Source: a virus
Taxonomy: Duplodnaviria; Heunggongvirae; Uroviricota; Caudoviricetes
Virus record (IMG/VR): IMGVR_UViG_3300029079_000001
DNA length: 48,034 bases
Strand: one strand, 5' to 3'
In this document: piece by piece, positions 10,048 to 40,027 of the stretch
How the letters are laid out: each line of letters begins with the position of its first letter
Position numbering within the stretch: the stretch's first letter is position 1
Made by a program: the position numbers and the translations under genes
Notes under the pieces: model-generated
Database searches by the model: none
What the model was told of the DNA's origin: nothing
The model's input: the letters and a program-made list of their open reading frames with translations, nothing else

Positions 10048-11949
10048 ATGAGCAAAGTAAAAATCGGTGAATTAATAAACTCACTTGTTAGCGATGTTGA
10101 GTCAATAGATAACTCTGACCGTCCTCAAGGGGAAAAAACAAAAAAAATAAAGGCTGTTGCATTAAAATTTAAAAATGCATTATTTAATGACAAGCGAAAG
10201 TTTAGGGGGAAAGGATTAGAAAAAAGAATTACAGCCAACACATTCAATGCCTATATGAGCAGGGCCAGAAAACGGTTTGATGATAAACTTCATCATAGCT
10301 TTGAAAAAAATATACATCGCCTATCTGAAAAGTATCCTTTATATAATGAGGAGCTATTGTCATGGCTTTCTCTACCTGCTGCCGATATTCGCCAGAGAAT
10401 GTCAGCTTTACAGGCAAAATTAAAATTAATTCTCCCTTTATCAGAAGATTTATCTAATATCAGAATTGGTGATAACAAAAGTCATAATAAGTTATTAAAA
10501 TTATCAAATAAATATAAAGAGTGGCAATTCGCCATATCTGATTTAACTAGCGATAACTGGAAAGATAAGCGCGATTATTTATATAAATTACTACAGCAAG
10601 GATCTGCCTTACTTGAGGAGTTGAATCAGCTAAAAGTTAACCATGAGATTCTCTATCATCTTCAACTAAGCCCTGCCGAACGCGCATCTATCCAGCAACG
10701 ATGGGCGGACGTTCTGCACAATAAGAAACGTAACGTGGTGGTCATTGATTACCCTAAATATATGCAAGCTATTTACGATATTATAAATAGCCCTGCTACA
10801 TTAAATAATCTAAACACTCGTTCAGGTATGGCTCCTTTGGCATTTGCACTTGCAGCATTGTCAGGAAGACGAATGATTGAGATTATGTATCAAGGTACAT
10901 TTACTGTTTCTGGTAAGTATACCGTTGATTTTTTAGGCCAAGCAAAAAAAAGAACTTCTGATGATATAACCAGAAAAATATATACATTATGCGAAGCAAA
11001 AACATTTGTTTATTTAATAAATGTACTTCGCTCATGCCCAGCAGCATCTGATTTTGATGATGTCGTTAAAGGTTATGGAGATAACGACACACGCTCTGAA
11101 AACGGACGGATTAATGCCATATTAGCAAAGGCTTTTAACCCGTGGGTTAAATCATTTTTCAAAGATGACCGCCGTGTTTATAAAGATAGTCGTGCTATTT
11201 ATGCCCGTATTGCGTATGAAATGTTTTTCCGCGTAGATCCTCGTTGGAAAAACGTAGATGAGGATGTTTTCTTTATGGAAATTTTAGGCCATGACGATGA
11301 AAACACTCAATTACACTATAAGCAATTCAAGCTGGCCAACTTCTCAAAGACATGGAGGCCAAATACTGGAAACGAAAATACCAGGCTGGAAGCATTGCAG
11401 CAGCTTGATGACGAAATGCCAGGATTCGCCAGAGGAGATGCCGGGGTTCGTCTGCATAACACAGTTAAGCAGCTGGTAGAGCAGGACCCCTCTATAAAAA
11501 TCACGAACAGCACTCTAAGAGCATTCAAATTTAGCCCTACAATGATTAGTCGATACCTGGAATTTGCTGCTGATGCTCTGGGGCAATTTGTTGGCGAAAA
11601 TGGACAATGGCAGCTGAAAATAGATTCTCCAGAAATCGTTATGCCTGACGAAGAAGAGCTGGAAGCAATACCTGAACAGACGGATGAATTATCAGAGGAT
11701 GACGATCTGGATGACGACGAAATTGAGATAGAGGAAGAGGAAGAGGAAGAGGAAGAGAGCGTAGAAGAACAGCAACCGCCCGCGCCTTCTTCACCTGTAT
11801 CTAAGCCGGTATTTAAGCCCGTGAGAAATATTGGTGATGGCTCATACGTTGTTGAGTTTCATTATAATGGCCAGAATTATGCTTGGTCCGGCATTGCAAA
11901 CAGCCCTATATCAGCAATGCAGTTAGCATGGCTGACATATTTCGGATAA
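10048..11949 (+). CDS. telN: Protelomerase TelN (telomere resolvase)
   Basis: 633 aa; N15 TelN-like sequence throughout with an acidic EEEEEEE C-terminal region; directly adjacent to the palindromic target. Confidence 0.9.
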   Translation: MSKVKIGELINSLVSDVESIDNSDRPQGEKTKKIKAVALKFKNALFNDKRKFRGKGLEKRITANTFNAYMSRARKRFDDKLHHSFEKNIHRLSEKYPLYNEELLSWLSLPAADIRQRMSALQAKLKLILPLSEDLSNIRIGDNKSHNKLLKLSNKYKEWQFAISDLTSDNWKDKRDYLYKLLQQGSALLEELNQLKVNHEILYHLQLSPAERASIQQRWADVLHNKKRNVVVIDYPKYMQAIYDIINSPATLNNLNTRSGMAPLAFALAALSGRRMIEIMYQGTFTVSGKYTVDFLGQAKKRTSDDITRKIYTLCEAKTFVYLINVLRSCPAASDFDDVVKGYGDNDTRSENGRINAILAKAFNPWVKSFFKDDRRVYKDSRAIYARIAYEMFFRVDPRWKNVDEDVFFMEILGHDDENTQLHYKQFKLANFSKTWRPNTGNENTRLEALQQLDDEMPGFARGDAGVRLHNTVKQLVEQDPSIKITNSTLRAFKFSPTMISRYLEFAADALGQFVGENGQWQLKIDSPEIVMPDEEELEAIPEQTDELSEDDDLDDDEIEIEEEEEEEEESVEEQQPPAPSSPVSKPVFKPVRNIGDGSYVVEFHYNGQNYAWSGIANSPISAMQLAWLTYFG

Positions 11950-12739: not shown

Positions 12740-12900
12740 CGCTTCATTTACTCGGGTTCCTACGCCCGGCTACGGGATTTACCGTAGCAGAGTAAACTTT
12801 ACCGTCAAAACGACGCGCACGTCAATAATTTGCAAAGACATTTTACCCCGTGACCAGTCACGGGGACAGGTGTTTTTATAATTTGCTTGAACGAGTGATC
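12740..12900 (-). ncRNA. Candidate leader/small regulatory RNA region (N15 CA / P4 CI RNA-like control of the antirepressor operon)
   Basis: No ORF; 9-bp-stem hairpin CCCCGTGAC/GTCACGGGG at 12846..12865; lies upstream of the terminator; the 10-mer GTTCCTACGC occurs twice (12589, 12756) with a partially complementary GGTAGGAAT at 12624. Confidence 0.35.
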
Positions 12901-13970: not shown

Positions 13971-14162
13971 TTACTCCCCGTTCACCGAAAATTCACGATA
14001 GAAACGTTTCCACATACGATAAGTCTGCGCAAATTGTTCACCACGAAACATCGCCTTCCTGGCCTTCATGTTTTCCTTGTGAGACTTTCGGTCTATGAAC
14101 CAAAACCATTGATGGAACACACAAAGCAAGAGACACAAAGATAATATCCAATCATTACCCAT
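13971..14162 (-). CDS. Small membrane protein (63 aa), translationally coupled to the repA stop
   Basis: ATG at 14162 overlaps the repA stop; TM segment WILSLCLLLCVFHQWFWFI; the ORF track gives a longer 13971..14279 frame. Confidence 0.5.
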   Translation of the reverse strand: MGNDWILSLCLLLCVFHQWFWFIDRKSHKENMKARKAMFRGEQFAQTYRMWKRFYREFSVNGE

Positions 14163-17100
14163 AGAAAGCGCCCTGCTCTTCGTAGCTGCATGAGCTATTC
14201 CCCGTAATGTATTCACGTAACCGCCGCAGCTCATTGCTGGAAAGGTGATCCATGAACTCTGTGAGGTACAGGGATGCAAACGTCATAGCTATGCTGGCTG
14301 ATGACCATGATGACATAGTGGCCAACTCCTCACTGGAAAGCGCACTCATCGCCCAGGACTCAGGTACAGCCACTGGCAACACGGCCAAAGCCTCAGAAAT
14401 TACTGAATGAGGGGCGTTTTGAACCTGCTCGTTTGTGGATCGCGTTTTATCATCCATATATATATTGAGATCCAAATCGCGATCCATTTCGATGGCTGTC
14501 TTCTCGGCTTTACGCGTTTTTAGGGTTAGGCCATCTTTCTGACGCTGAACAAGAATATCCAGCATAAATGCCGCTGATTCAGGCTCAACAAAACGCAAGG
14601 TTGGACGCTTATCGCCGTCTCTGCCGCGACGTTTACCTGTTTTAAGGCCAAGAGAGTCGCAAATGTTTTTAAACAACGCTTCCGGCACTTTAGGCTTCCC
14701 TTTTGGCGTCATAAAACCACCAATGTGCAGAACGTTATTCAACAGGTCACGGCGTTCGGCTGTCATGAGGTTATCTCGAGCGAATTTGAGACGCTCCTGA
14801 GTCGCCTCGCCGGTCATAGTCTCAGGGTTGATACCGCAGTCGATAAAGTACTGCCGGAGAGTTGCTGATTTAAGCGCATAGAAACCGCGCGCCCCGACTT
14901 CAACAGTAGGAGTAGCTTTTACCTTGTGATCGATTATTCCAGGGAATTTAGTTTTAAAGACATCATCAGCCTGCTCGCGAGTCATCGCGGTCACTACAAA
15001 ATATTGCCACTGTCCCGCCTGACGGTATGCGTAGGTAAAATTGATGGCTGCTTCTTCCCGGTCGTAACGACGAGCTGTTACCTCATCTAAAAGCATTGTT
15101 TCATAGCGGCGAACTTTGTCTCGAGCACCATCGAAATAGAATTTCAGCGTGCCTTCTTCAACCGGTAGTTTCAGTTCGTTTTCAATATCCCAGCGGACAA
15201 GTTTTGCCTGTTCTTCAAGCGTCAGCGCGCGTTTTTTTAGCAGTTCTTCACGCTCTGATTCTTGTGGAGTTTCTGTATTGAGGTGCAGATCCAGTGTCTG
15301 TTCCCACACAATATCCCGCGCTTCTTTACGCAGATCTTTACCGATATCATTCGCAGCATAATCGGTGGCCAGCGGTGATACCTTATAACCGTCGCTGTGC
15401 ATGATGCAGATCATGTTGCTGGCGTAGTCGTTACGCGCAGTCGCTTCAATTGCGGCTGCTTTAATTTTCATCCTGGTAAAGTCGGTATTGGCCACCCCCA
15501 TTGATATACGGTCGCCATCGAAAACGACATCCGTCAGTTCACCGTTCATACCTGCGGTAGCAAGCAATGCCTGGGCGAATGCTCGTTCTATTTTTTGCGG
15601 GTCAGTTTCTCGTTTTGCACGAGCTTTATCAAAGCCGATAATAAATTCTTTTGCTGTACGGTCGCGGCGTAGCATTTGCACTGCGTCGCTGGGTACAACT
15701 TCACCACAGAACATGCCGAAATGACGGTCAAAATGTTTTTGCTCAATCGACACGCCGGATGAAATAGACGGGCTATAAATCAGGCCGTCGTATTTTTTGA
15801 CCATCTTTTTCGGTTGATTGGTAAATGCTTCAACTTCTGGCTCTGGTTTGTTTTTCTGGTTTACACACAGAAATTTCTTACCAGGAAAATGCATTCTCAG
15901 GGTGGCTGTCACATCTTCTGCAAAGGTGGAGCTGTCGGTGGCCAACATGATTTTTTCGCCATCCGATACAGCTTTCACCACCTCGGTCATGATGCGATCT
16001 TTTTCTGTATAAAAAACCCGGATTGGCTCACCTGTTTCGCGGTTGCGAACATCAACAGGTAATTCAATTACGTGGATCTGCAGCCATGCCGGTAAACCTA
16101 GTTCTTCACGGCGTTTCATAGCCAGTTCAGCCAGGTCAACCAGTAGATCGTTCGCATCAGCATCCACCATGATTGGGTGTTGTTCCGTTCTGGCCAGCGC
16201 GTCAATTAGCGTATTGAATACAGCAACCGGGTTTTCCATAGCCCGACCGGAAAGAACGGCACGTAGCCCTTGCGTGGCCTCGTCAAAGCCAAAATAGTCG
16301 TGCTGGCGCATCAACGGTTGCCAGCAGTTTTTAACAATCGAGTTTATGCAGATGGTCAGTTTACTGGCGTATGGAGCAATTTCCTGATAGCCAGGGTCCT
16401 GATAGTGCAGGATATCGGCTTTTACACCTTTTCCTTCTGTCATCATTTCCCACAGGCCACCAATAAGGGAGACACGGTGAGCAACAGAGATACCACGTTC
16501 TGAGCTATGCATTAACGGTCGTAACAATCCAGTAGATTTGCCGGAACCCATACCAGCACGGACGATGACTATCCCCTGTAGTGATTGCACGTACTTCAGG
16601 ACATCATCGGTCATTACCGAAGTTTCAAAACGCTTATAGGTGATATGTTGAGGGCGTTTATTGGGATCAGTTATGCGTTCGCTGAAAGAGCGCGGAGCCT
16701 GGGCAATACGGCACTTTTTATTCAGGCGACGGGCAATGTGGTCTTTTACCGTAGCACGATAGATATTTTCCAGTCCCATTTCACGCAGAACGATGCAGAA
16801 CATGTTAAATAAATCTGACGGACTGTTAGGAACCGGGCAGGTTAGCATGCCAATATCCACCGCTCTCAGCAGCTCTTTGGCAAAAGTACGACGGTTATCC
16901 CGCTTAATTGTCTTCAGGCGGTTGAGCGTCAGAGATAGCAAATCAGTACCGGTTTTCAGGCGGTTTGCTGTTGCAAATAGTTGACGTGCTGTTTCACGAA
17001 GTCCACGTAGTTTGTGCAGGTCGTTGAAGTCACTGCACTCCATTTGCGGATCGTCTTCAAAAGTTGGATAGACGCAGCGGACATCGTTGAATTTCGATAA

Positions 17101-18150
17101 GATTTCATAGCCAGTCCGCAGGCCGGTATTCCCTTTTCCTTCTGTGGCAGATTTCCGGTCATTATCCAGTGCGCAGGTGATTTTTGCCGCCGGGTACATG
17201 TTTACCAGTTGTTCCACAACATGAACCATGTTGTTAGCGGATACAGCGACAACCACAGCGTCAAAGCGTTTATCTTTTTTCGTGGCAAGCCAGATGGATG
17301 CACCAGTAGCAAAACCTTCTGTAACAGCGATGTTTTGCGCCCCTTTCAGCTCACCGATAACAAAGCAGGCACCGACGAAATCGCCGCTGGTTACTGCGCT
17401 GGTCTGGTATTTCCCACCTTGTTTGTCGATTCGCTGCCAACCCACAATACGACCATCATAACGACCGTCCAGGTGAGCCAGAGGGATAGCCATATATGTG
17501 GTTGGCCCCCGGCTCCATTTCGCACTGTCGTGACTGGTCACGCGACGCACATCACATGAACTAAAAACGTCACGAATACCTTTTTTAATCGCATATGGCC
17601 ATGAGCCGTCTTCAGCCTGAGCATGTTCCCACGCGCTGTGGAATGCCAGCCATCCCAGCAAACGTTCATGGTCCATTTGGTTGTTTTTCAGGTCATTAAT
17701 TCGTTTTTGTTCTTCACGGCGACGACGTGCTTCGGCCTGACGTTCTATTCTTTCCCGTTCTTCTTCCGGTTGTGCGACCACGGTCGCATTATTCCGTTGT
17801 TGCTCACGGCGATATTCAGAAAACAGGAAGGAGAAACCGCTCCATGAGCCAGCATCGCTGCCTTTATGGACGAAGTTAATGAACGGGTAATCAATCCCTT
17901 TGCTGTGTTCCAGCCTGGAGTAAATTTCTACGCGTCCTTTCAGGCTCTTTTCGAGAGCTTCTGGAGATGTTTTATTGTATGAAGAGTAACGCTCAACCCC
18001 CCCGCGAGGGTTGAGTTGGATGTTGTCGGAACAGGCAGACCAGTTGATACCAGCCATCTGTGCCAGCTCGGTTAGTTCATCCCGTGCTGCTTCAATTAGC
18101 GAGAACGGATCGCTGCCAAAGCGATCCGCATAGAAATCGTTTAATGTCAT
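14155..18150 (-). CDS. repA: Replication protein RepA (multidomain primase-helicase, N15 RepA-like)
   Basis: 1331 aa; Walker A GMGSGKST in the helicase part; position and size match N15 repA; sopC-like palindrome #1 lies inside it at 17771..17788. Confidence 0.85.
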   Translation of the reverse strand: MTLNDFYADRFGSDPFSLIEAARDELTELAQMAGINWSACSDNIQLNPRGGVERYSSYNKTSPEALEKSLKGRVEIYSRLEHSKGIDYPFINFVHKGSDAGSWSGFSFLFSEYRREQQRNNATVVAQPEEERERIERQAEARRRREEQKRINDLKNNQMDHERLLGWLAFHSAWEHAQAEDGSWPYAIKKGIRDVFSSCDVRRVTSHDSAKWSRGPTTYMAIPLAHLDGRYDGRIVGWQRIDKQGGKYQTSAVTSGDFVGACFVIGELKGAQNIAVTEGFATGASIWLATKKDKRFDAVVVAVSANNMVHVVEQLVNMYPAAKITCALDNDRKSATEGKGNTGLRTGYEILSKFNDVRCVYPTFEDDPQMECSDFNDLHKLRGLRETARQLFATANRLKTGTDLLSLTLNRLKTIKRDNRRTFAKELLRAVDIGMLTCPVPNSPSDLFNMFCIVLREMGLENIYRATVKDHIARRLNKKCRIAQAPRSFSERITDPNKRPQHITYKRFETSVMTDDVLKYVQSLQGIVIVRAGMGSGKSTGLLRPLMHSSERGISVAHRVSLIGGLWEMMTEGKGVKADILHYQDPGYQEIAPYASKLTICINSIVKNCWQPLMRQHDYFGFDEATQGLRAVLSGRAMENPVAVFNTLIDALARTEQHPIMVDADANDLLVDLAELAMKRREELGLPAWLQIHVIELPVDVRNRETGEPIRVFYTEKDRIMTEVVKAVSDGEKIMLATDSSTFAEDVTATLRMHFPGKKFLCVNQKNKPEPEVEAFTNQPKKMVKKYDGLIYSPSISSGVSIEQKHFDRHFGMFCGEVVPSDAVQMLRRDRTAKEFIIGFDKARAKRETDPQKIERAFAQALLATAGMNGELTDVVFDGDRISMGVANTDFTRMKIKAAAIEATARNDYASNMICIMHSDGYKVSPLATDYAANDIGKDLRKEARDIVWEQTLDLHLNTETPQESEREELLKKRALTLEEQAKLVRWDIENELKLPVEEGTLKFYFDGARDKVRRYETMLLDEVTARRYDREEAAINFTYAYRQAGQWQYFVVTAMTREQADDVFKTKFPGIIDHKVKATPTVEVGARGFYALKSATLRQYFIDCGINPETMTGEATQERLKFARDNLMTAERRDLLNNVLHIGGFMTPKGKPKVPEALFKNICDSLGLKTGKRRGRDGDKRPTLRFVEPESAAFMLDILVQRQKDGLTLKTRKAEKTAIEMDRDLDLNIYMDDKTRSTNEQVQNAPHSVISEALAVLPVAVPESWAMSALSSEELATMSSWSSASIAMTFASLYLTEFMDHLSSNELRRLREYITGNSSCSYEEQGAFYG
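17771..17788. repeat. sopC-like centromere palindrome #1 (inside repA)
   Basis: TGTGCGACCACGGTCGCA. Confidence 0.6.
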
Positions 18151-18302: not shown

Positions 18303-18395
18303 GTCTTTTTTCTGCTGCTGTAACCTGAGTCAACCCACAGAACATATGCCCTGCATTAAACCAGATTTACAGCAAACAATAAACCCCGTATTAAG

Positions 18396-18992
18396 TCATC
18401 TACCCTCAACCATGAATGATTTGATCGTTCCGACTATTTGGTGAACAAATTCAAGATCGCTTTTCCTGAAGATGGCGCGTTGTGAGTTTGTTCCATCCAG
18501 ATAGTAATTTTCATCATCAAAACGGGCCAGGCGCTGGATAGTGATATTTCCTGCAGTATCACGAACCAGAACATCCTCGCCGGGGACCAGTTCCAGCGCA
18601 GAATCGACCAGGAGAAAATCGCCTGGCTGATAGTTTCCCTGCGTAAGATTGCTGATAGTTAACGCATACACAGTATTGCGCTGGCTGATGAATGGCAGGA
18701 ATCGCTCAGTATTTGGAACCTGTCCCGGCTTCCACTCTTCATCCGGCCCACTTTCAGTTGTGCCAATAACAGGAATGCGATCAGGGTCATATTCTGTCCC
18801 ATATAGCACCCAATGCACTGGCTTGCGTAAGCACTTAGCCAGGGCAATACCTATCTCCAGTGACGGCATTACGTCGCCACGTTCTAAGTTTTGGACGCCT
18901 GCTATAGAGATATCGACAGCCTCAGCAACTTCTCGCAACGTCAGCTTCATCTCTAAACGGCGTGCTTTCAGTCGTTCGCCTCGTGTTTTCAT
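18396..18992 (-). CDS. cB: Prophage repressor CB (CI-like: N-terminal HTH plus C-terminal S24 LexA-like domain)
   Basis: 198 aa; HTH LTLREVAEAVDISIAGVQNLERG; divergent from cro across an operator-containing intergenic region. Confidence 0.8.
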   Translation of the reverse strand: MKTRGERLKARRLEMKLTLREVAEAVDISIAGVQNLERGDVMPSLEIGIALAKCLRKPVHWVLYGTEYDPDRIPVIGTTESGPDEEWKPGQVPNTERFLPFISQRNTVYALTISNLTQGNYQPGDFLLVDSALELVPGEDVLVRDTAGNITIQRLARFDDENYYLDGTNSQRAIFRKSDLEFVHQIVGTIKSFMVEGR

Positions 18993-19014: not shown

Positions 19015-19056
19015 TTATAGCTGGCTATAAAATTTATTTATTATAGCTAGCTTTAA
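19015..19056. promoter_or_regulatory. Immunity operator sites between cB and cro
   Basis: 16-bp palindromes TTATAGCTGGCTATAA (19015..19030) and TTATAGCTAGCTTTAA (19041..19056). Confidence 0.7.
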
Positions 19057-19083
19057 TTGTTGTTTATTGTTTATAATAACAAC

Positions 19084-19305
19084 ATGAAACCAGAAGAACT
19101 TATTCGCCACTTTGGCAGTGTAGAAAAAGCAGCGGCAGGGGTAGGTGTAACACCCGGAGCTGTTTACCAATGGTTAACCGCTGGAGAGATTCCTTCATTG
19201 CGGCAAAGCGATATTGAAGTTCGTACTGCTTATAAGCTGAAGAGTGACTTTACAACTCGGCGGGTAAAGCAGTCGATTAAGGAGAGTCGTAAGCGTGGAG
19301 CTTGA
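19084..19305 (+). CDS. cro: Cro-like HTH regulator
   Basis: 73 aa from ATG 19084 (the ORF track uses upstream TTG 19057); HTH AAGVGVTPGAVYQWL; divergent from cB. Confidence 0.7.
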   Translation: MKPEELIRHFGSVEKAAAGVGVTPGAVYQWLTAGEIPSLRQSDIEVRTAYKLKSDFTTRRVKQSIKESRKRGA

Positions 19306-21484: not shown

Positions 21485-21774
21485 TGAATATCGACACCAC
21501 GATAACGATCGATACGCTCCTAAATTCCGGTCTGGCACTTCTCGGTTGGCTTTACATCATGTCCCGTACATGGCGATGGCTGGGTTCCATTTTCCTGAAA
21601 CAGTGGAAAAAACGGCGCAAACAGGAACTACGCCAGAAGGCATTAGAAGCGTTCTATGACGCATTTGAACTTGGCAGCATTGAACCAGGCACAACAGCCA
21701 AGATAGCGACAAAAGGCGACCTGATGATAGTGATGTTCCGACAGGAGAGAGCAGAGAAAGGGGAATCAGCATGA
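21484..21774 (+). CDS. Small membrane-anchored hypothetical protein
   Basis: N-terminal hydrophobic segment LLNSGLALLGWLYIM. Confidence 0.4.
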   Translation: MNIDTTITIDTLLNSGLALLGWLYIMSRTWRWLGSIFLKQWKKRRKQELRQKALEAFYDAFELGSIEPGTTAKIATKGDLMIVMFRQERAEKGESA

Positions 21775-22349: not shown

Positions 22350-22762
22350 TGACCACATTTACCGACAAAGAACTGATTAAAGAAATCAAAGAGCGCATAG
22401 GCAGTCTGGATGTGCGAGACAATATTGAGCGCCGTGCTTATGAAATTGCTTTGGTATCGCTGGAAGCAGAACCGGTGGCATGGCTGCATTCAGACAATGG
22501 CTTAGGTATTCCGGCAATAACACGGAGTAAAAACATTGCTGACAGTTGGTTATCAAAGGGCTGGTATGTTCAGTCGCTATATGTAGCCCAGCCACTGCCG
22601 GTGGTGCCGGATGATAATCGTATTCAGTTTTCTGTTTCACTTCCTGCAGCGTTTGGTGGAGATAAATATTTTATTGATGGTGTATTTCAACCTTTGAGAT
22701 ATGAGCGTGACTGTGAAAAAGCGGTTGTGGCCGCTGGCGGTGTAGTTAATTGGGTTAAGTAA
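22349..22762 (+). CDS. Hypothetical protein (137 aa)
   Basis: ATGA-coupled ORF. Confidence 0.45.
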   Translation: MTTFTDKELIKEIKERIGSLDVRDNIERRAYEIALVSLEAEPVAWLHSDNGLGIPAITRSKNIADSWLSKGWYVQSLYVAQPLPVVPDDNRIQFSVSLPAAFGGDKYFIDGVFQPLRYERDCEKAVVAAGGVVNWVK

Positions 22763-22777
22763 TTTTAAGGAGGATTT

Positions 22778-23104
22778 ATGGCGCTGACACCGGCAGAACG
22801 GCAAAGGAGACGCAGGGAACGGTTGAAGAAGGAAGGCACATCAAGACGGGACTGGATTCTGGAGCCTGACGAGTTACGTATGTTGGGAGAAATTTGTGTA
22901 TTGCGTAGACCGGGGCGAGTTCCATATTCAGAGAATGAAGTCATTGGTCTGCTGATCAGGAAAAACTATAAGGAACTGCAGAAGCAGCTATCTACTACTT
23001 GCCCACGATGTGGTCAAAAAATGCCTGTTTCAGAATGCATTTTTGATGGTGAAGACTCATGTCACCTTACAACTACGAGGCTGAAACTTGCGCTCAAAGT
23101 GTGA
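22778..23104 (+). CDS. Hypothetical basic protein with C-terminal CxxC motif
   Basis: Arg-rich N-terminus RQRRRRERLKK; CPRCG motif. Confidence 0.4.
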   Translation: MALTPAERQRRRRERLKKEGTSRRDWILEPDELRMLGEICVLRRPGRVPYSENEVIGLLIRKNYKELQKQLSTTCPRCGQKMPVSECIFDGEDSCHLTTTRLKLALKV

Positions 23105-23235
23105 CTGGTCACGGAATGATAAACGAAGCGAAAAGAGCTTTTCTTATGGTGATGATGGGCTTTTGTAGGTGGTTGAGTGAGGCGTAGGAAGAGAACATAA
23201 ATATCTGACTACAAAGCTATTAACCCAGTTAATCC

Positions 23236-23258
23236 ATTGAAAGTTGGCTATAAAATTT
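23236..23258. promoter_or_regulatory. Candidate CB operator half-site/promoter upstream of the 23309 gene
   Basis: GGCTATAAAATTT is identical to the right half of the 19015 operator. Confidence 0.45.
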
Positions 23259-23308
23259 GAGTTTTAACCTGTAATTTTATACAGTATCAAATAACCTTTT
23301 TTAATTAA

Positions 23309-23527
23309 ATGGTATTAGATTCAATGACTGAAGCATCTGTATCAACTCTTGAAGAACTCGAATCAAACCTAAAAGACATCGACGCCGTTTTGGATCTGGT
23401 TAGCGTTGCTCTGGCTTCTCCCGAAGCTAGCTTGCATCTTGGCGAGATTTCACGGCTTGTTAGTATGTCGCGGGAGATTGCTCAGAATTGCCAACAAGCG
23501 ATTGCTGTTGAGTGTTTACATCATTGA
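23309..23527 (+). CDS. Hypothetical acidic small protein (72 aa), candidate repressor-controlled early/anti-immunity function
   Basis: ORF downstream of the operator-like site. Confidence 0.4.
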   Translation: MVLDSMTEASVSTLEELESNLKDIDAVLDLVSVALASPEASLHLGEISRLVSMSREIAQNCQQAIAVECLHH

Positions 23528-23570
23528 TACACACCCCGCCCTTCTGGACGGGGTAGCGAAAAGTGATTAA

Positions 23571-23858
23571 TCAATAGACGGCATTAATATTAATCGTTGC
23601 GCCACATGCTTGGGCATATTTTGATAAAGTTTTCATGCTTGCTCCTAAAGGATTGCTTTCCAGGCGGCTGATGGCGGACGGGCGCAAGCCCATTCTTTCT
23701 GCCAGAGCTGACTTCGTTAAACCTGCTCTTTCCCTCATTTCGTATAACATTTCGACCATCTCCAGTTCTTTATCGGCCTCTTCATATCCTTTGATAGCTT
23801 CTGGAGTGTTGAGTAGTTTTTCCTTTACTTCGTTAAACGGGATGCCTTTTGCTTTCAT
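23571..23858 (-). CDS. HTH (XRE-family) antitoxin, HigA-like
   Basis: 95 aa; HTH LTKSALAERMGLRPSAISRLES; start overlaps the upstream toxin stop. Confidence 0.65.
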   Translation of the reverse strand: MKAKGIPFNEVKEKLLNTPEAIKGYEEADKELEMVEMLYEMRERAGLTKSALAERMGLRPSAISRLESNPLGASMKTLSKYAQACGATININAVY

Positions 23859-24169
23859 CAGTTCATCTCCTTCAGGCGAGTTCTGGCGATTTCTATAGCC
23901 TTTACTGGTGTTTTCTGTGTCTTTTTTACAAATGCATGCAATAGATAAATTTCGTTACCAGTCGCGTAGGCGTATAGCGTTCTTGCGATATTTTTATCCC
24001 CTACTCTTAGTTCAAAGAGTCCTCCGCCTATTACACGGCTATGGGGCATCTTAAGTTTGTTTCCTTCTTTCTCAAGCCGTTCAATTAGCCTGGTCATGCG
24101 ACCTCGCAGATCGTCTGGTAGTTCAAGCAGTTCATCCAGTGCTGCAGGGTGGGTTATCACGTTAAACAT
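23858..24169 (-). CDS. RelE/ParE-superfamily toxin, Gp49/HigB-2-like
   Basis: 103 aa from ATG 24169 with AGGAGG RBS; toxin-upstream-of-antitoxin (hig-type) order; ...LFELRVGDKNIARTLYAY... core. Confidence 0.55.
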   Translation of the reverse strand: MFNVITHPAALDELLELPDDLRGRMTRLIERLEKEGNKLKMPHSRVIGGGLFELRVGDKNIARTLYAYATGNEIYLLHAFVKKTQKTPVKAIEIARTRLKEMN

Positions 24170-24227
24170 ATTATAGCCTCCTAACGCGCAAAATACACCA
24201 AAACGAGAAAACATTGCAAACATAAAA

Positions 24228-24245
24228 TTTCACTAAAAAGTGAAA
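24228..24245. promoter_or_regulatory. Palindromic operator in the toxin-antitoxin promoter
   Basis: TTTCAC-TAAAAA-GTGAAA inverted repeat 60 bp upstream of the toxin start. Confidence 0.5.
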
Positions 24246-24315
24246 AATAACGCTGGATGTGTTCGTTTGGCAGAGTTACAGTTCGTGTTGTTGAGGGGGA
24301 TAACCCACTAACTGT

Positions 24316-24555
24316 ATGAATTTGGAGGATATTATGAATTATCAAGGTAACGAAAAAATGCGCGACGACGTTGCTGAGATAGCTAACGAACTGTATGAGT
24401 TGTGGCAGAAGGTTGAACGTTTCGAAAAGGAATATGGTTTCAACAGTACCAACCTAGCAGACCGACTGGCTGGTCGCTTAGTTGGGACTATGGGGCCAAA
24501 ACTGGCTGAGTTGAACCGCTTTATGGCTGATGTTGATTTCCAGTTTCAAGATTGA
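24316..24555 (+). CDS. Hypothetical protein (79 aa)
   Basis: ORF with GGAGG RBS. Confidence 0.45.
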   Translation: MNLEDIMNYQGNEKMRDDVAEIANELYELWQKVERFEKEYGFNSTNLADRLAGRLVGTMGPKLAELNRFMADVDFQFQD

Positions 24556-30640: not shown

Positions 30641-34321
<3,681 letters not shown>

Positions 34322-38848: not shown

Positions 38849-39589
38849 ATGCCAACACCAAATCCTCTGGCACCGGTGAAAGGGGCCGGAACCACCCTGT
38901 GGGTTTATAAGGGGAACGGTGACCCTTATGCGAACCCGCTTTCAGACGTTGACTGGTCGCGTCTGGCAAAAGTTAAAGACCTGACGCCCGGCGAACTGAC
39001 CGCAGAGTCCTATGACGACAGTTATCTCGATGATGAAGATCCGGACTGGGCCGCGACCGGGCAGGGGCAGAAATCCGCCGGAGATACCAGCTTCACGCTG
39101 GCGTGGATGCCCGGAGAGCAGGGGCAGCAGGCGCTGCTGGCGTGGTTTAATGAAGGTGATACCCGTGCCTATAAAATCCGCTTCCCGAACGGCACGGTCG
39201 ATGTGTTCCGTGGCTGGGTCAGCAGTATCGGTAAGGCGGTGACAGCGAAGGAAGTGATCACCCGTACGGTGAAGGTCACCAATGTGGGACGCCCGTCGAT
39301 GGCAGAAGATCGCAGCACGGTAACAGCGGCAACCGGCATGACCGTGACGCCTGCCAGCACCTCGGTGGTTAAAGGGCAGAGCACGACGCTGACCGTGGCA
39401 TTCCAGCCGGAAGGCGCAACCGACAAGAGCTTCCGTGCGGTGTCTGCGGATAAAACAAAAGCCACCGTGTCGGTCAGTGGTATGACCATCACCGTGAAAG
39501 GTGTTGCTGCAGGCAAGGTCAACATTCCGGTCGTATCCGGTAATGGTGAGTTTGCTGCGGTTGCAGAAATCAACGTCACCGCCAGTTAA
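38849..39589 (+). CDS. V: Major tail tube protein V
   Basis: [22 protein letters not shown]..., lambda gpV-like including the C-terminal Ig-like domain. Confidence 0.9.
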
Positions 39590-39604
39590 TCCGGAGAATC
39601 AGCG

Positions 39605-40027
39605 ATGTTCCTGAAAACCGAATCATTTGAACATAACGGCGTGACCGTCACGCTTTCTGAACTGTCAGCCCTGCAGCGTATTGAGCATCTCGCCCTGATG
39701 AAACGACAGGCAGAACAGGCGGACTCCGACAGCAACCAACAGGTTGCTTTGGCAGACCTTATCAGAACCGGTGCTTTTGTGGTGGCGATGTCCCTGTGGC
39801 ATAACCATCCGAAGAAGACGCAGATGCCGTCCATGAATGAAGCCGTTAAACAGATTGAGCAGGAAGTGCTTACCACCTGGCCCGCGGAGGCAATTTCTCA
39901 TGCTGAAAACGTGGTGTACCGGCTGTCCGGTATGTATGAGTTTGTGGTGAATGATGCTCCTGAACAGACAGAGGACGCCGGGCCTGCAGAGCCTGTTTCT
40001 GCGGGAAAGTGTTCGACGGTGAGCTGA
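39605..40027 (+). CDS. G: Tail assembly chaperone G
   Basis: 140 aa, lambda gpG-like. Confidence 0.85.
   Translation: MFLKTESFEHNGVTVTLSELSALQRIEHLALMKRQAEQADSDSNQQVALADLIRTGAFVVAMSLWHNHPKKTQMPSMNEAVKQIEQEVLTTWPAEAISHAENVVYRLSGMYEFVVNDAPEQTEDAGPAEPVSAGKCSTVS
40002..40008 (+). promoter_or_regulatory. Programmed -1 ribosomal frameshift slippery heptamer for the G-T fusion
   Basis: GGGAAAG at the 3' end of G, as in lambda. Confidence 0.75.

What the first reader, a model, noticed from the sequence alone, without database searches (positions are those of the whole stretch)
23230..23530. Second CB-operator-like site upstream of a small acidic gene
The 13-mer GGCTATAAAATTT from the cB/cro operator recurs at 23246, about 50 bp upstream of a 72-aa ORF. 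This suggests a second repressor-controlled promoter, as expected for an anti-immunity or early function in N15-like elements.
Basis: inference. Interest (0 to 1): 0.4.

Follow-up and report, generated by a model that had tools for sequence, protein, structure and literature searches.

The report
SOS-controlled antirepressor gene antC promoter
The repeated word is real, but it is only one half of a repressor binding site; the gene beside it is the N15-type antirepressor antC, whose conserved control element is a perfect LexA (SOS) box, an arrangement already known from phage N15.

Summary
The window is an N15-like linear phage-plasmid. GGCTATAAAATTT does occur at 19023 and 23246; the shared word is 14 nt (TGGCTATAAAATTT). 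It is the right half of operator OR3 plus AT-rich flank. The 16-mer around it (23238-23253, TGAAAGTTGGCTATAA) has one perfect half-site and a poor one, with G where all 30 reference half-sites have T. A shared word of at least 14 nt has P about 0.02. As an operator match it is the best untrained hit in the window, but about 30% of shuffled windows reach that score.

Sister plasmids with an identical CB repressor and identical OR1-3 carry two other upstream alleles that lack the site. N15, phiKO2 and Enterobacter relatives lack it too.

The conserved elements are a -35 TTGAGT, a -10 TACAGT and a perfect LexA box CTGTAATTTTATACAG (23269-23284) over the -10. The ORF (probably 67 aa, from 23324) is 56% identical to an unannotated N15 ORF that also follows a LexA box, which I infer to be antC. 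antC encodes the LexA-controlled antirepressor of CB.

The family-wide conserved secondary CB-type site lies upstream of immA (12876-12891), not here. A weak, lineage-specific CB site at antC is not excluded (about 0.2). Verdict: ordinary and mostly already known.

The parts
23245..23258 (+). 14-nt word TGGCTATAAAATTT, identical to 19022-19035 (right half of OR3 plus 5 nt of AT-rich flank).
   Evidence: P about 0.02 for a shared word of at least 14 nt
23238..23253 (.). CB-operator-like 16-mer TGAAAGTTGGCTATAA. The right half is perfect (GCTATAA). The left half is TGAAAGT, with G at position 2 where all 30 reference half-sites have T. Its predicted centre is about -46.5, just upstream of the -35. 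It is found only in the 'type A' upstream allele.
   Evidence: matrix score 14.0; half-site scores 2.7 and 11.3; absence in relatives:
23257..23262 (+). Predicted -35 hexamer TTGAGT of the antC promoter. The TTG is invariant in the 7 aligned elements.
   Evidence: read from the sequence; conservation in alignment A1; not picked up by the consensus scan, which needs 9 of 12 matches (my count is 8 of 12)
23267..23286 (.). LexA (SOS) box ACCTGTAATTTTATACAGTA, core CTGT-N8-ACAG at 23269-23284. It overlaps the spacer and the -10.
   Evidence: perfect CTGT-N8-ACAG; 21.5 bits, next best in the window 11.5; core box identical in all 29 type A, B and C sequences including the window, and near-identical in N15, Enterobacter and phiKO2 relatives
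23280..23285 (+). Predicted -10 hexamer TACAGT, 17 nt after the -35. It lies inside the invariant TATACAGTAT block.
23324..23527 (+). antC homolog, probably 67 aa. The product is small and acidic (pI 4.3) and is an inferred antirepressor of CB.
   Evidence: 56% identity to an unannotated N15 ORF at 39604-39807 that also follows a LexA box; phrog_6301 at 4e-35 and phrog_10889 'anti-repressor' at 1e-6. Start codon: type B reads ATG GTA TGA at the first ATG and phiKO2 has CTG there; RefSeq annotates 204-nt genes
23533..23554 (.). GC-rich hairpin between the convergent antC and higA-like genes. It has no clear U-run, so it is a possible non-canonical bidirectional terminator.
   Evidence: -17.7 kcal/mol, z = -3.05 for the 61-nt stretch 23520-23580 folded; not called by the terminator scan
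23169..23240 (+). Remnant of the 3' end of N15 gene 47, with an in-frame stop in the window. The former stop codon TGA (23238-23240) forms the first three bases of the operator-like 16-mer.
   Evidence: window ...GVGREHKYLTTKLLTQLIH*, L007 ...GRGAGREHKYRTTKIFNQLIH*, N15 gp47 ...ERGAGRAHKYRTIQ*
19015..19079 (.). The OR operators between cB and cro: OR3 19015-19030 TTATAGCTGGCTATAA, OR2 19041-19056 TTATAGCTAGCTTTAA, OR1 19064-19079 TTATTGTTTATAATAA.
   Evidence: positional homology to the protein_bind features of the N15 record; OR3 is identical to the experimentally bound N15/phiKO2 OR3 (PMC4997575, PMC4488713)
18344..18382 (.). OL operators upstream of repA: OL2 18344-18359 ATATGCCCTGCATTAA and OL1 18367-18382 TTACAGCAAACAATAA.
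   Evidence: homology to N15 protein_bind 34056-34094
18396..18992 (-). cB prophage repressor, 198 aa: HTH_3 domain plus a degenerate S24-like C-terminal domain that scores below the Pfam cut-off. It is 78% identical to N15 CB.
12876..12891 (.). CB-operator-like site TTATAATTTGCTTGAA upstream of the immA (icd/ant) operon. It is homologous to N15 28576 TTATAGTTTGCTTTAC and is conserved across the family.

Best explanation
Positions 23230-23530 hold the promoter and coding sequence of antC, the LexA-controlled antirepressor of N15-type linear phage-plasmids.

Proposed mechanism. In the lysogen, host LexA sits on the SOS box (23267-23286), which overlaps the -10 (TACAGT) of a sigma-70 promoter whose -35 is TTGAGT, and keeps antC silent. 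DNA damage activates RecA, LexA cleaves itself, and antC is transcribed. The 67-aa acidic AntC then binds the non-cleavable CB repressor and removes it from OR and OL, so cro, Q and repA are expressed and lytic growth starts.

The 14-nt word shared with OR3 is one good CB half-site lying in a decaying remnant of gene 47, just upstream of the -35. It is not a conserved part of this control module and is most likely not a working CB operator.

Shown here: the sequence elements, their conservation, and the homology to the N15 ORF. Inferred from N15 literature and not tested here: LexA binding, AntC-CB binding, the transcription start, and the identification of that N15 ORF as antC.
For: Identity of the element:
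- It is an N15-like element with repA, cB, cro and Q in N15 order, and OR3 identical to the N15/phiKO2 OR3.

The LexA box:
- A perfect CTGT-N8-ACAG lies at 23269-23284.
- With a LexA matrix it scores 21.5 bits, above the median of the E. coli training boxes (20.7). The next best site in the window scores 11.5.
- The core box and the -35/-10 are identical in all 29 type A, B and C sequences including the window. They are nearly identical in N15 (CTGTGTTTATATACAG), Enterobacter plasmids and phiKO2.

The gene:
- The ORF is 56% identical to an N15 ORF between genes 47 and 48 that follows a LexA box.
- N15 has only two strong LexA boxes: one before the umuD-like gene 26 and one before this ORF.
- Literature states that N15 induction is started by antC, a LexA-controlled antirepressor of CB lying outside immA and immB (PMC4488713, PMC3121763, both citing Mardanov & Ravin 2007).
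- N15 CB is reported as non-proteolytic (PMC10432266, PMC4997575). The S24-like domain of CB here scores below the Pfam cut-off.
- The ORF gives a weak hit to a PHROG family annotated as anti-repressor.

Against a CB operator:
- The left half has G at the invariant T2.
- No partner site lies within the surrounding 120 bp (23181-23300).
- Alleles B and C, paired with 99.5-100% identical CB and identical OR1-3, lack the site. Homology with allele C begins exactly at the -35.
- The left half is the end of a gene 47 remnant.
- As a positive control, the immA-upstream site is kept in 13 distinct sequence contexts across the family.
Against: - The paper that defines antC (Mardanov & Ravin 2007) could not be read here. 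The identification of the N15 ORF at 39604 as antC therefore rests on elimination and on my memory.
- No transcription start or binding data exist for this element.
- The predicted promoter matches the consensus at only 8 of 12 positions and was not called by the scan.
- The operator-like site is the best untrained CB-matrix hit in the window. It scores above the window's own inferred OL2 (9.6-11.6) and N15's OL2 (10.4). Apart from G2, every base has a precedent in a known operator.
- A 14-nt identity with OR3 has P about 0.02.
- Polarised with N15 and Enterobacter as outgroups, the two changes specific to type A and the extra change in L007 all move towards the operator consensus (read by eye).
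Confidence: 0.75

Rival explanations
1. The type A upstream allele, which includes this window, has acquired a weak but real CB operator at about -54 to -39 of the antC promoter. CB would then add a second lock on antC alongside LexA. Because AntC inactivates CB, this would create a positive feedback loop that sharpens SOS induction and lowers spontaneous induction.
For: - It is the best untrained CB-matrix hit in 48 kb (14.0 bits). It scores above the window's inferred OL2 and above N15's OL2, which lies within the CB-binding region annotated in the N15 record.
- Its right half is perfect. Its left half, TGAAAGT, resembles the OR2 half-site TTAAAGC. L007 has TGAAAGC, leaving only G2 deviant.
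- The 14-nt identity with OR3 has P about 0.02.
- Derived substitutions in type A point towards the operator consensus.
- Secondary CB-type sites with one degenerate half do exist in this family, at immA.
Against: - G replaces the T found in 30 of 30 reference half-sites.
- Half-sites of OR3 are reported not to be bound, and changing the outermost bases of OR3 abolished binding (PMC4997575).
- The site is a lone site with no cooperative partner.
- It lies upstream of the -35, not over it.
- It is absent from alleles B and C with the same CB, and from N15, phiKO2 and Enterobacter relatives.
- 27-32% of shuffled windows reach its matrix score.
- Its left half is the tail of a gene remnant.
Confidence: 0.2
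2. The shared word reflects promoter-type sequence rather than repressor binding. The A/T-rich tract ATAAAATTT directly upstream of the -35 would act as an UP-like element, or TATAAA (23249-23254) would act as the -10 of a minor second promoter, much as the same word overlaps cro promoter elements at OR3.
For: - The word sits immediately upstream of the -35 hexamer, in UP-element territory (UP consensus from general knowledge).
- A similar word, GGCTATAATATGT, occurs at 24166 (- strand), just upstream of the RefSeq-type start of the toxin gene, where it could be a -10 region (my reading).
- In phiKO2 the cro promoters overlap the OR operators (PMC4997575).
Against: - No acceptable -35 lies 16-18 nt upstream of TATAAA (my reading).
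- The promoter scan finds nothing on the + strand.
- The tract is not conserved in alleles B and C (AAAGTTT is retained, the rest is not) or in N15.
Confidence: 0.1
3. The site is a target of Cro, because it copies the centre and right half of OR3, the only operator that phiKO2 Cro binds.
For: The central TG and the right half are identical to OR3.
Against: Cro of phiKO2 and PY54 is highly specific for the complete 16-bp OR3 and does not bind half-sites or OR2 (PMC4997575, PMC4488713). Here the left half differs from OR3 at 3 of 7 positions.
Confidence: 0.03

Closest known systems
antC of phage-plasmid N15, the LexA-controlled antirepressor of CB (Mardanov & Ravin 2007, J Bacteriol 189:6333; cited in PMC4488713 and PMC3121763)
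   Same: - Same genomic slot: after the gene 46/47 homologs and converging on the RelE/ParE-HTH toxin-antitoxin pair.
- A small acidic protein, 56% identical.
- A LexA box over the -10, with the invariant TATACAGTAT block.
- Paired with a CB-type repressor whose S24-like domain is degenerate.
   Different: - The protein is 44% diverged.
- The box spacer differs (AATTTTAT against GTTTATAT).
- Gene 47 upstream is reduced to a remnant.
- The upstream flank carries an OR3-like half-site that N15 lacks.
CB operators OR1-3 and OL1-2 of N15 and phiKO2 (Lobocka 1996, from memory; Hammerl 2016, PMC4997575)
   Same: - 16-bp frame, with the right half and centre identical to OR3.
- 15 of 16 bases have a precedent in known operators.
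   Different: - G at the invariant position 2.
- No neighbouring operator 23-26 bp away.
- Positioned upstream of the -35, not over the promoter hexamers.
- Not conserved among elements with the same repressor.
CB-controlled Pa promoter of the N15 immA anti-immunity operon (Ravin, Svarchevsky & Deho 1999; its content is recalled from memory)
   Same: A secondary CB-type site with one good half and one degenerate half, in front of an antirepressor function.
   Different: That site (window 12876-12891, N15 28576) is conserved across the whole family. The antC site is confined to one allele.
Other LexA-controlled small antirepressors: Tum of phage 186; GfoA and GftA of the Gifsy prophages (PMC3121763)
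   Same: The same logic: a non-cleavable repressor, with an SOS box controlling a small antirepressor encoded outside the immunity region.
   Different: No significant sequence relationship was shown here beyond a weak hit to a PHROG family annotated as anti-repressor.

Membership tests
N15/phiKO2-type CB operator | 16-bp site with two-fold symmetry, with both half-sites close to TTATAGC or TTAAAGC | tested here: not met
   The right half is perfect (11.3 bits). The left half, TGAAAGT, scores 2.7 bits and matches 4 of 7 bases of TTATAGC.
N15/phiKO2-type CB operator | T-A-(N)10-T-A motif present in all known operators (PMC4997575) | tested here: not met
   Position 2 is G. All 30 half-sites of the 15 reference operators have T2 and A3.
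N15/phiKO2-type CB operator | Conserved at the homologous place in elements that carry the same repressor | tested here: not met
   Present in 17 type A loci plus the window. Absent from 11 type B loci and the type C locus, all with 99.5-100% identical CB where cB is included in the locus, and with the same OR3. Also absent from N15, phiKO2 and Enterobacter relatives.
N15/phiKO2-type CB operator | Overlaps promoter hexamers, or lies in an array with 23-26 bp spacing | tested here: not met
   It ends 3 bp upstream of the predicted -35. No other site scoring above 3 bits lies within 23181-23300.
N15/phiKO2-type CB operator | Bound by CB in vitro or in vivo | not testable with these tools
   Needs a gel-shift or footprint assay, or a reporter assay.
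LexA (SOS) box of Enterobacteriaceae | CTGT-N8-ACAG palindrome with an AT-rich spacer, scoring like known boxes | tested here: met
   CTGTAATTTTATACAG. It scores 21.5 bits against a training median of 20.7, with a 10-bit gap to the next site in the window (the matrix was built from boxes recalled from memory).
LexA (SOS) box of Enterobacteriaceae | Overlaps the promoter and is conserved in orthologous promoters | tested here: met
   It overlaps the spacer and the -10. It is identical in all type A, B and C sequences and near-identical in N15, Enterobacter and phiKO2 relatives.
LexA (SOS) box of Enterobacteriaceae | LexA binding and SOS-inducible transcription | not testable with these tools
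   Reported for N15 antC in the literature (cited in PMC3121763). Not tested for this element.
AntC antirepressor of N15-like phage-plasmids | Sequence homology to N15 AntC | tested here: inconclusive
   56% identity over 68 residues (E = 3e-17) to the N15 ORF at 39604-39807. That this ORF is antC is inferred: it is the only LexA-boxed ORF in N15 besides the umuD-like gene. The defining paper could not be read.
AntC antirepressor of N15-like phage-plasmids | Encoded outside immA and immB, in an element whose main repressor is not self-cleaving | tested here: met
   It lies 4.3 kb to the right of cB/cro and far from immA. The S24-like domain of CB is below the Pfam cut-off. N15 CB is reported as non-proteolytic (PMC10432266, PMC4997575).
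AntC antirepressor of N15-like phage-plasmids | Binds and inactivates CB | not testable with these tools
   Needs pull-down, two-hybrid or induction assays.

The most novel reading that the evidence does not exclude
In one sub-lineage of E. coli N15-like phage-plasmids (the type A antC-upstream allele, which includes this window), a few point changes in the tail of a decaying gene 47 have produced a weak CB operator next to the -35 of the SOS-controlled antC promoter. The antirepressor would then be repressed by the protein it inactivates. That double-negative loop would make SOS induction more switch-like than in N15.
Probability: 0.2. Interest if true: 0.4.

Novelty: new member of a known kind. 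Interest (0 to 1): 0.15.

Why it matters
It corrects the annotation of this locus. The small "hypothetical" gene is the induction trigger (antC) of this phage-plasmid, and it is wired to the host SOS response through LexA, not to CB. This is the arrangement already described for N15, so it adds a divergent member rather than a new principle.

It also places the conserved secondary CB-type site of this element in front of immA. Only if the half-operator proved functional would there be something new: a recently evolved feedback loop on an antirepressor promoter.

Tried and rejected
- Consensus promoter and terminator scan of 22700-24400. It found nothing on the + strand near antC. The promoter proposed here matches 8 of 12 positions and rests on conservation only.
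- Reading the key papers (Mardanov & Ravin 2007, Lobocka 1996, Casjens 2004). None is held. Further literature searches for the CB control of immA Pa gave nothing usable.
- Protein database search with AntC. Only 10 close relatives were found, none with an informative name.
- Genome-contig scan with AntC. No confirmed locus.
- Pfam search. No family for AntC; DUF7032 at E = 0.08 was ignored.
- Extended homology between the OR3 region and the antC upstream region. Outside the 14-mer the flanks match only 4-5 of 11 bases (by eye), so a duplication or gene-conversion tract is unlikely.
- A second promoter using TATAAA at 23249-23254 as its -10. Rejected for lack of a -35.
- A cooperative partner operator. 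None lies within 23181-23300.
- Structure prediction of AntC. Not run, because it does not bear on the operator question.

Full report
**Context**

The window is an N15-like linear phage-plasmid. It encodes:
- a 1331-aa RepA (14155-18150, - strand);
- a 198-aa CB-type repressor (18396-18992, - strand) that is 78% identical to N15 CB;
- a P22_Cro-type cro, ending at 19305;
- a Q-like antiterminator.

The closest records are E. coli phage-plasmids such as PhiR46_1, YDC107_1 and many unnamed E. coli, E. fergusonii, E. albertii and Shigella plasmids.

**The observation**

GGCTATAAAATTT occurs exactly at 19023 and 23246. The exact identity is 14 nt: TGGCTATAAAATTT at 19022-19035 and 23245-23258. 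The second copy ends 51 bp before the 72-aa ORF at 23309-23527.

**What the word is at its first site**

I aligned the cB/cro and cB/repA spacers with N15, whose record annotates the CB-binding regions, and with phiKO2. This gives the operators of this element:

| Operator | Start | Sequence |
|---|---|---|
| OR3 | 19015 | TTATAGCTGGCTATAA |
| OR2 | 19041 | TTATAGCTAGCTTTAA |
| OR1 | 19064 | TTATTGTTTATAATAA |
| OL1 | 18367 | TTACAGCAAACAATAA |
| OL2 | 18344 | ATATGCCCTGCATTAA |

OR3 is identical to the N15/phiKO2 OR3, which has been shown to bind CB (PMC4488713, PMC4997575). It is half an operator, not a whole one.

**What the word is at 23246**

The 16-bp frame is 23238-23253, TGAAAGTTGGCTATAA. 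The right half is perfect. The left half is poor: half-site scores are 2.7 against 11.3 bits. It has G at position 2, where all 30 half-sites of the 15 reference operators have T. This breaks the T-A-N10-T-A motif that Hammerl et al. describe as common to all operators (PMC4997575). That paper also reports three relevant findings:
- CB needs at least 18 bp of target.
- Half-sites of OR3 are not bound.
- Changing only the outermost bases of OR3 abolishes binding.

TTAAAGC is a half of OR2, and a T at position 7 occurs in N15 OL1. The site is the best untrained hit of the matrix in the window at 14.0 bits, above the inferred OL2.

**Statistics**
- A shared word of at least 14 nt between the 92-bp OR region and the rest of the window arises in 2% of dinucleotide shuffles; at least 13 nt arises in 8%.
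- A matrix score of 14.0 or more somewhere in 48 kb arises in 27-32% of shuffles.

The signal is mild, and it rests largely on five flank bases that are not part of the operator.

**Comparative test**

I collected 31 related loci that carry an antC homolog. Among elements whose CB is 99.5-100% identical to this one, where cB is included in the locus, and whose OR1-3 are the same, there are three different sequences upstream of the small gene:
- Type A (the window and 17 loci) has the site. One member, L007, has TGAAAGCTGGCTATAA.
- Type B (11 loci) has TGAAAATTGACCGTAA, which scores 2-6 bits.
- Type C (L031, E. albertii; CB 100% identical; same OR3, OR2 and OR1) has unrelated sequence there. 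Its homology with the window begins exactly at AAAGTTTGAGT, that is at the -35.

N15, three Enterobacter plasmids and phiKO2 have nothing operator-like at the homologous place. The site is therefore dispensable for elements that use the very same repressor.

The left half of the 16-mer is also the tail of a decayed gene. The window reads ...GVGREHKYLTTKLLTQLIH* with an in-frame stop upstream. L007 has an intact 51-aa mini-gene ending ...HKYRTTKIFNQLIH*. N15 gp47 ends ...HKYRTIQ*. The TGA at 23238-23240 is that gene's stop codon.

**What is conserved**

From the -35 onward, all elements share three features:
- TTG of a -35 hexamer (TTGAGT at 23257-23262);
- a 17-nt spacer;
- TACAGT (23280-23285) inside an invariant TATACAGTAT block.

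Across the spacer and the -10 lies CTGTAATTTTATACAG (23269-23284), a perfect CTGT-N8-ACAG LexA box. I scored it with a LexA matrix built from E. coli SOS boxes that I wrote down from memory. It scores 21.5 bits, above the median training box (20.7), and the next best site in the window scores 11.5. The core box is identical in every type A, B and C sequence. N15 has CTGTGTTTATATACAG and phiKO2 has ATGTATTTTTATACAG.

**The gene**

The ORF product is 56% identical to an unannotated N15 ORF (39604-39807, between genes 47 and 48) that follows the N15 box, and 52% identical to phiKO2 Gp47. N15 has only two strong LexA boxes, one before its umuD-like gene 26 and one before this ORF.

The literature supports the following:
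- N15 induction is started by antC.
- antC is a LexA-controlled antirepressor that acts on CB and lies outside immA and immB (PMC4488713; PMC3121763, citing Mardanov & Ravin 2007).
- The N15 repressor is not self-cleaving (PMC10432266, PMC4997575).

I could not read the 2007 paper, so equating the N15 ORF with antC is an inference by elimination. The protein also hits phrog_6301 (4e-35, no annotated function) and, weakly, phrog_10889, annotated 'anti-repressor' (1e-6). It has no Pfam family.

The real start is probably the ATG at 23324, giving 67 aa. Three points support this:
- Type B has ATG GTA TGA at the upstream ATG.
- phiKO2 has CTG at the upstream ATG.
- RefSeq annotates 204-nt genes.

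The invariant TGGTA about 10 nt upstream may serve as a weak ribosome-binding site (my reading). A GC-rich hairpin without a clear U-run follows the gene, between it and the convergent toxin-antitoxin pair.

**Where the conserved secondary CB site is**

The same matrix finds TTATAGTTTGCTTTAC at N15 28576 (15.3 bits), upstream of the immA operon. Its homolog in the window is TTATAATTTGCTTGAA at 12876-12891. Loci fetched through a neighbouring conserved hairpin show the core TTATAGTTTGCTT kept in 11 of 13 distinct sequence contexts, while the flanks vary. The other two contexts are the window itself (TTATAATTTGCTT) and one group with TTACAGCTAACTT. That is how a functional secondary operator should look.

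As I recall, Ravin et al. 1999 showed that the upstream immA promoter Pa is CB-controlled. That claim rests on my memory and was not verified here.

**Residual case for a weak CB site**

I polarised the type A/B difference with the N15 and Enterobacter sequences in alignment A1 (by eye, across a weakly aligned stretch). Three changes all move towards the operator consensus:
- A to G at position 6 (type A);
- G to A at position 13 (type A);
- T to C at position 7 (L007 only).

Together with the 14-nt identity, this keeps open a lineage-specific, weak CB site. If real, it would put antC under the repressor it inactivates, which is a feedback loop. I give this about 0.2. It would not replace LexA as the main control.

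**Verdict**

It is wrong about which repressor: the operator is a LexA box. This is a divergent member of the known N15 antC/SOS arrangement.

Noticed in passing
window 12876-12891: A CB-operator-like site, TTATAATTTGCTTGAA, lies upstream of the immA (icd/ant) operon. It is homologous to N15 28576 TTATAGTTTGCTTTAC. The core TTATAGTTTGCTT is kept in 11 of 13 distinct contexts across N15-like elements. The window's copy has an unusual A at position 6.
   Followed up: partly
window 23169-23240 (L007 6465-6620 for the intact version): Gene 47 of N15 is reduced to a 51-aa mini-gene in some relatives and to a remnant with an in-frame stop in this window. Type B elements keep a 243-nt gene there, and type C has none. 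The region upstream of antC is a mosaic junction.
   Followed up: partly
window 23309 vs 23324: The 72-aa ORF probably starts 5 codons too early. The upstream ATG is followed by a stop in type B and is CTG in phiKO2. The invariant ATGGTA may be a weak ribosome-binding site instead.
   Followed up: yes
window 23571-24223 (- strand): A toxin-antitoxin pair converges on antC, as in N15 genes 48 and 49. It consists of an HTH antitoxin (95 aa) and a RelE/ParE-type (Gp49 family) toxin. The 121-aa ORF is annotated as 103 aa in RefSeq relatives.
   Followed up: no
L003 (N15) 39570-39585: In N15 and two Enterobacter plasmids, the right arm of the antC LexA box reads TTATATACAGTATTAA. This obeys the T-A-N10-T-A rule and scores 10.5 bits on the CB matrix, about the same as N15 OL2. 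It is not conserved in the window or in L010, so it is probably a by-product of the LexA box.
   Followed up: partly
L009 (phiKO2) 11783-11802; L003 (N15) 21658-21677: There are strong LexA-like boxes elsewhere in relatives: at the start of phiKO2 methyltransferase gene 52 (19.8 bits) and upstream of the N15 umuD-like gene 26 (24.5 bits). The window has no second box.
   Followed up: no
window 18344-18359: The inferred OL2 of this element (ATATGCCCTGCATTAA) is much more degenerate than OL2 of N15 or phiKO2. It scores 9.6-11.6 bits even as a training member, so CB control of repA may rest mainly on OL1 here.
   Followed up: no
window 23533-23554: A GC-rich hairpin lies between the convergent antC and antitoxin genes (the 61-nt stretch 23520-23580 folds at -17.7 kcal/mol, z = -3.05). 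Neither strand has a clear U-run. N15 has a stronger hairpin followed by a T-rich stretch at the same place.
   Followed up: partly
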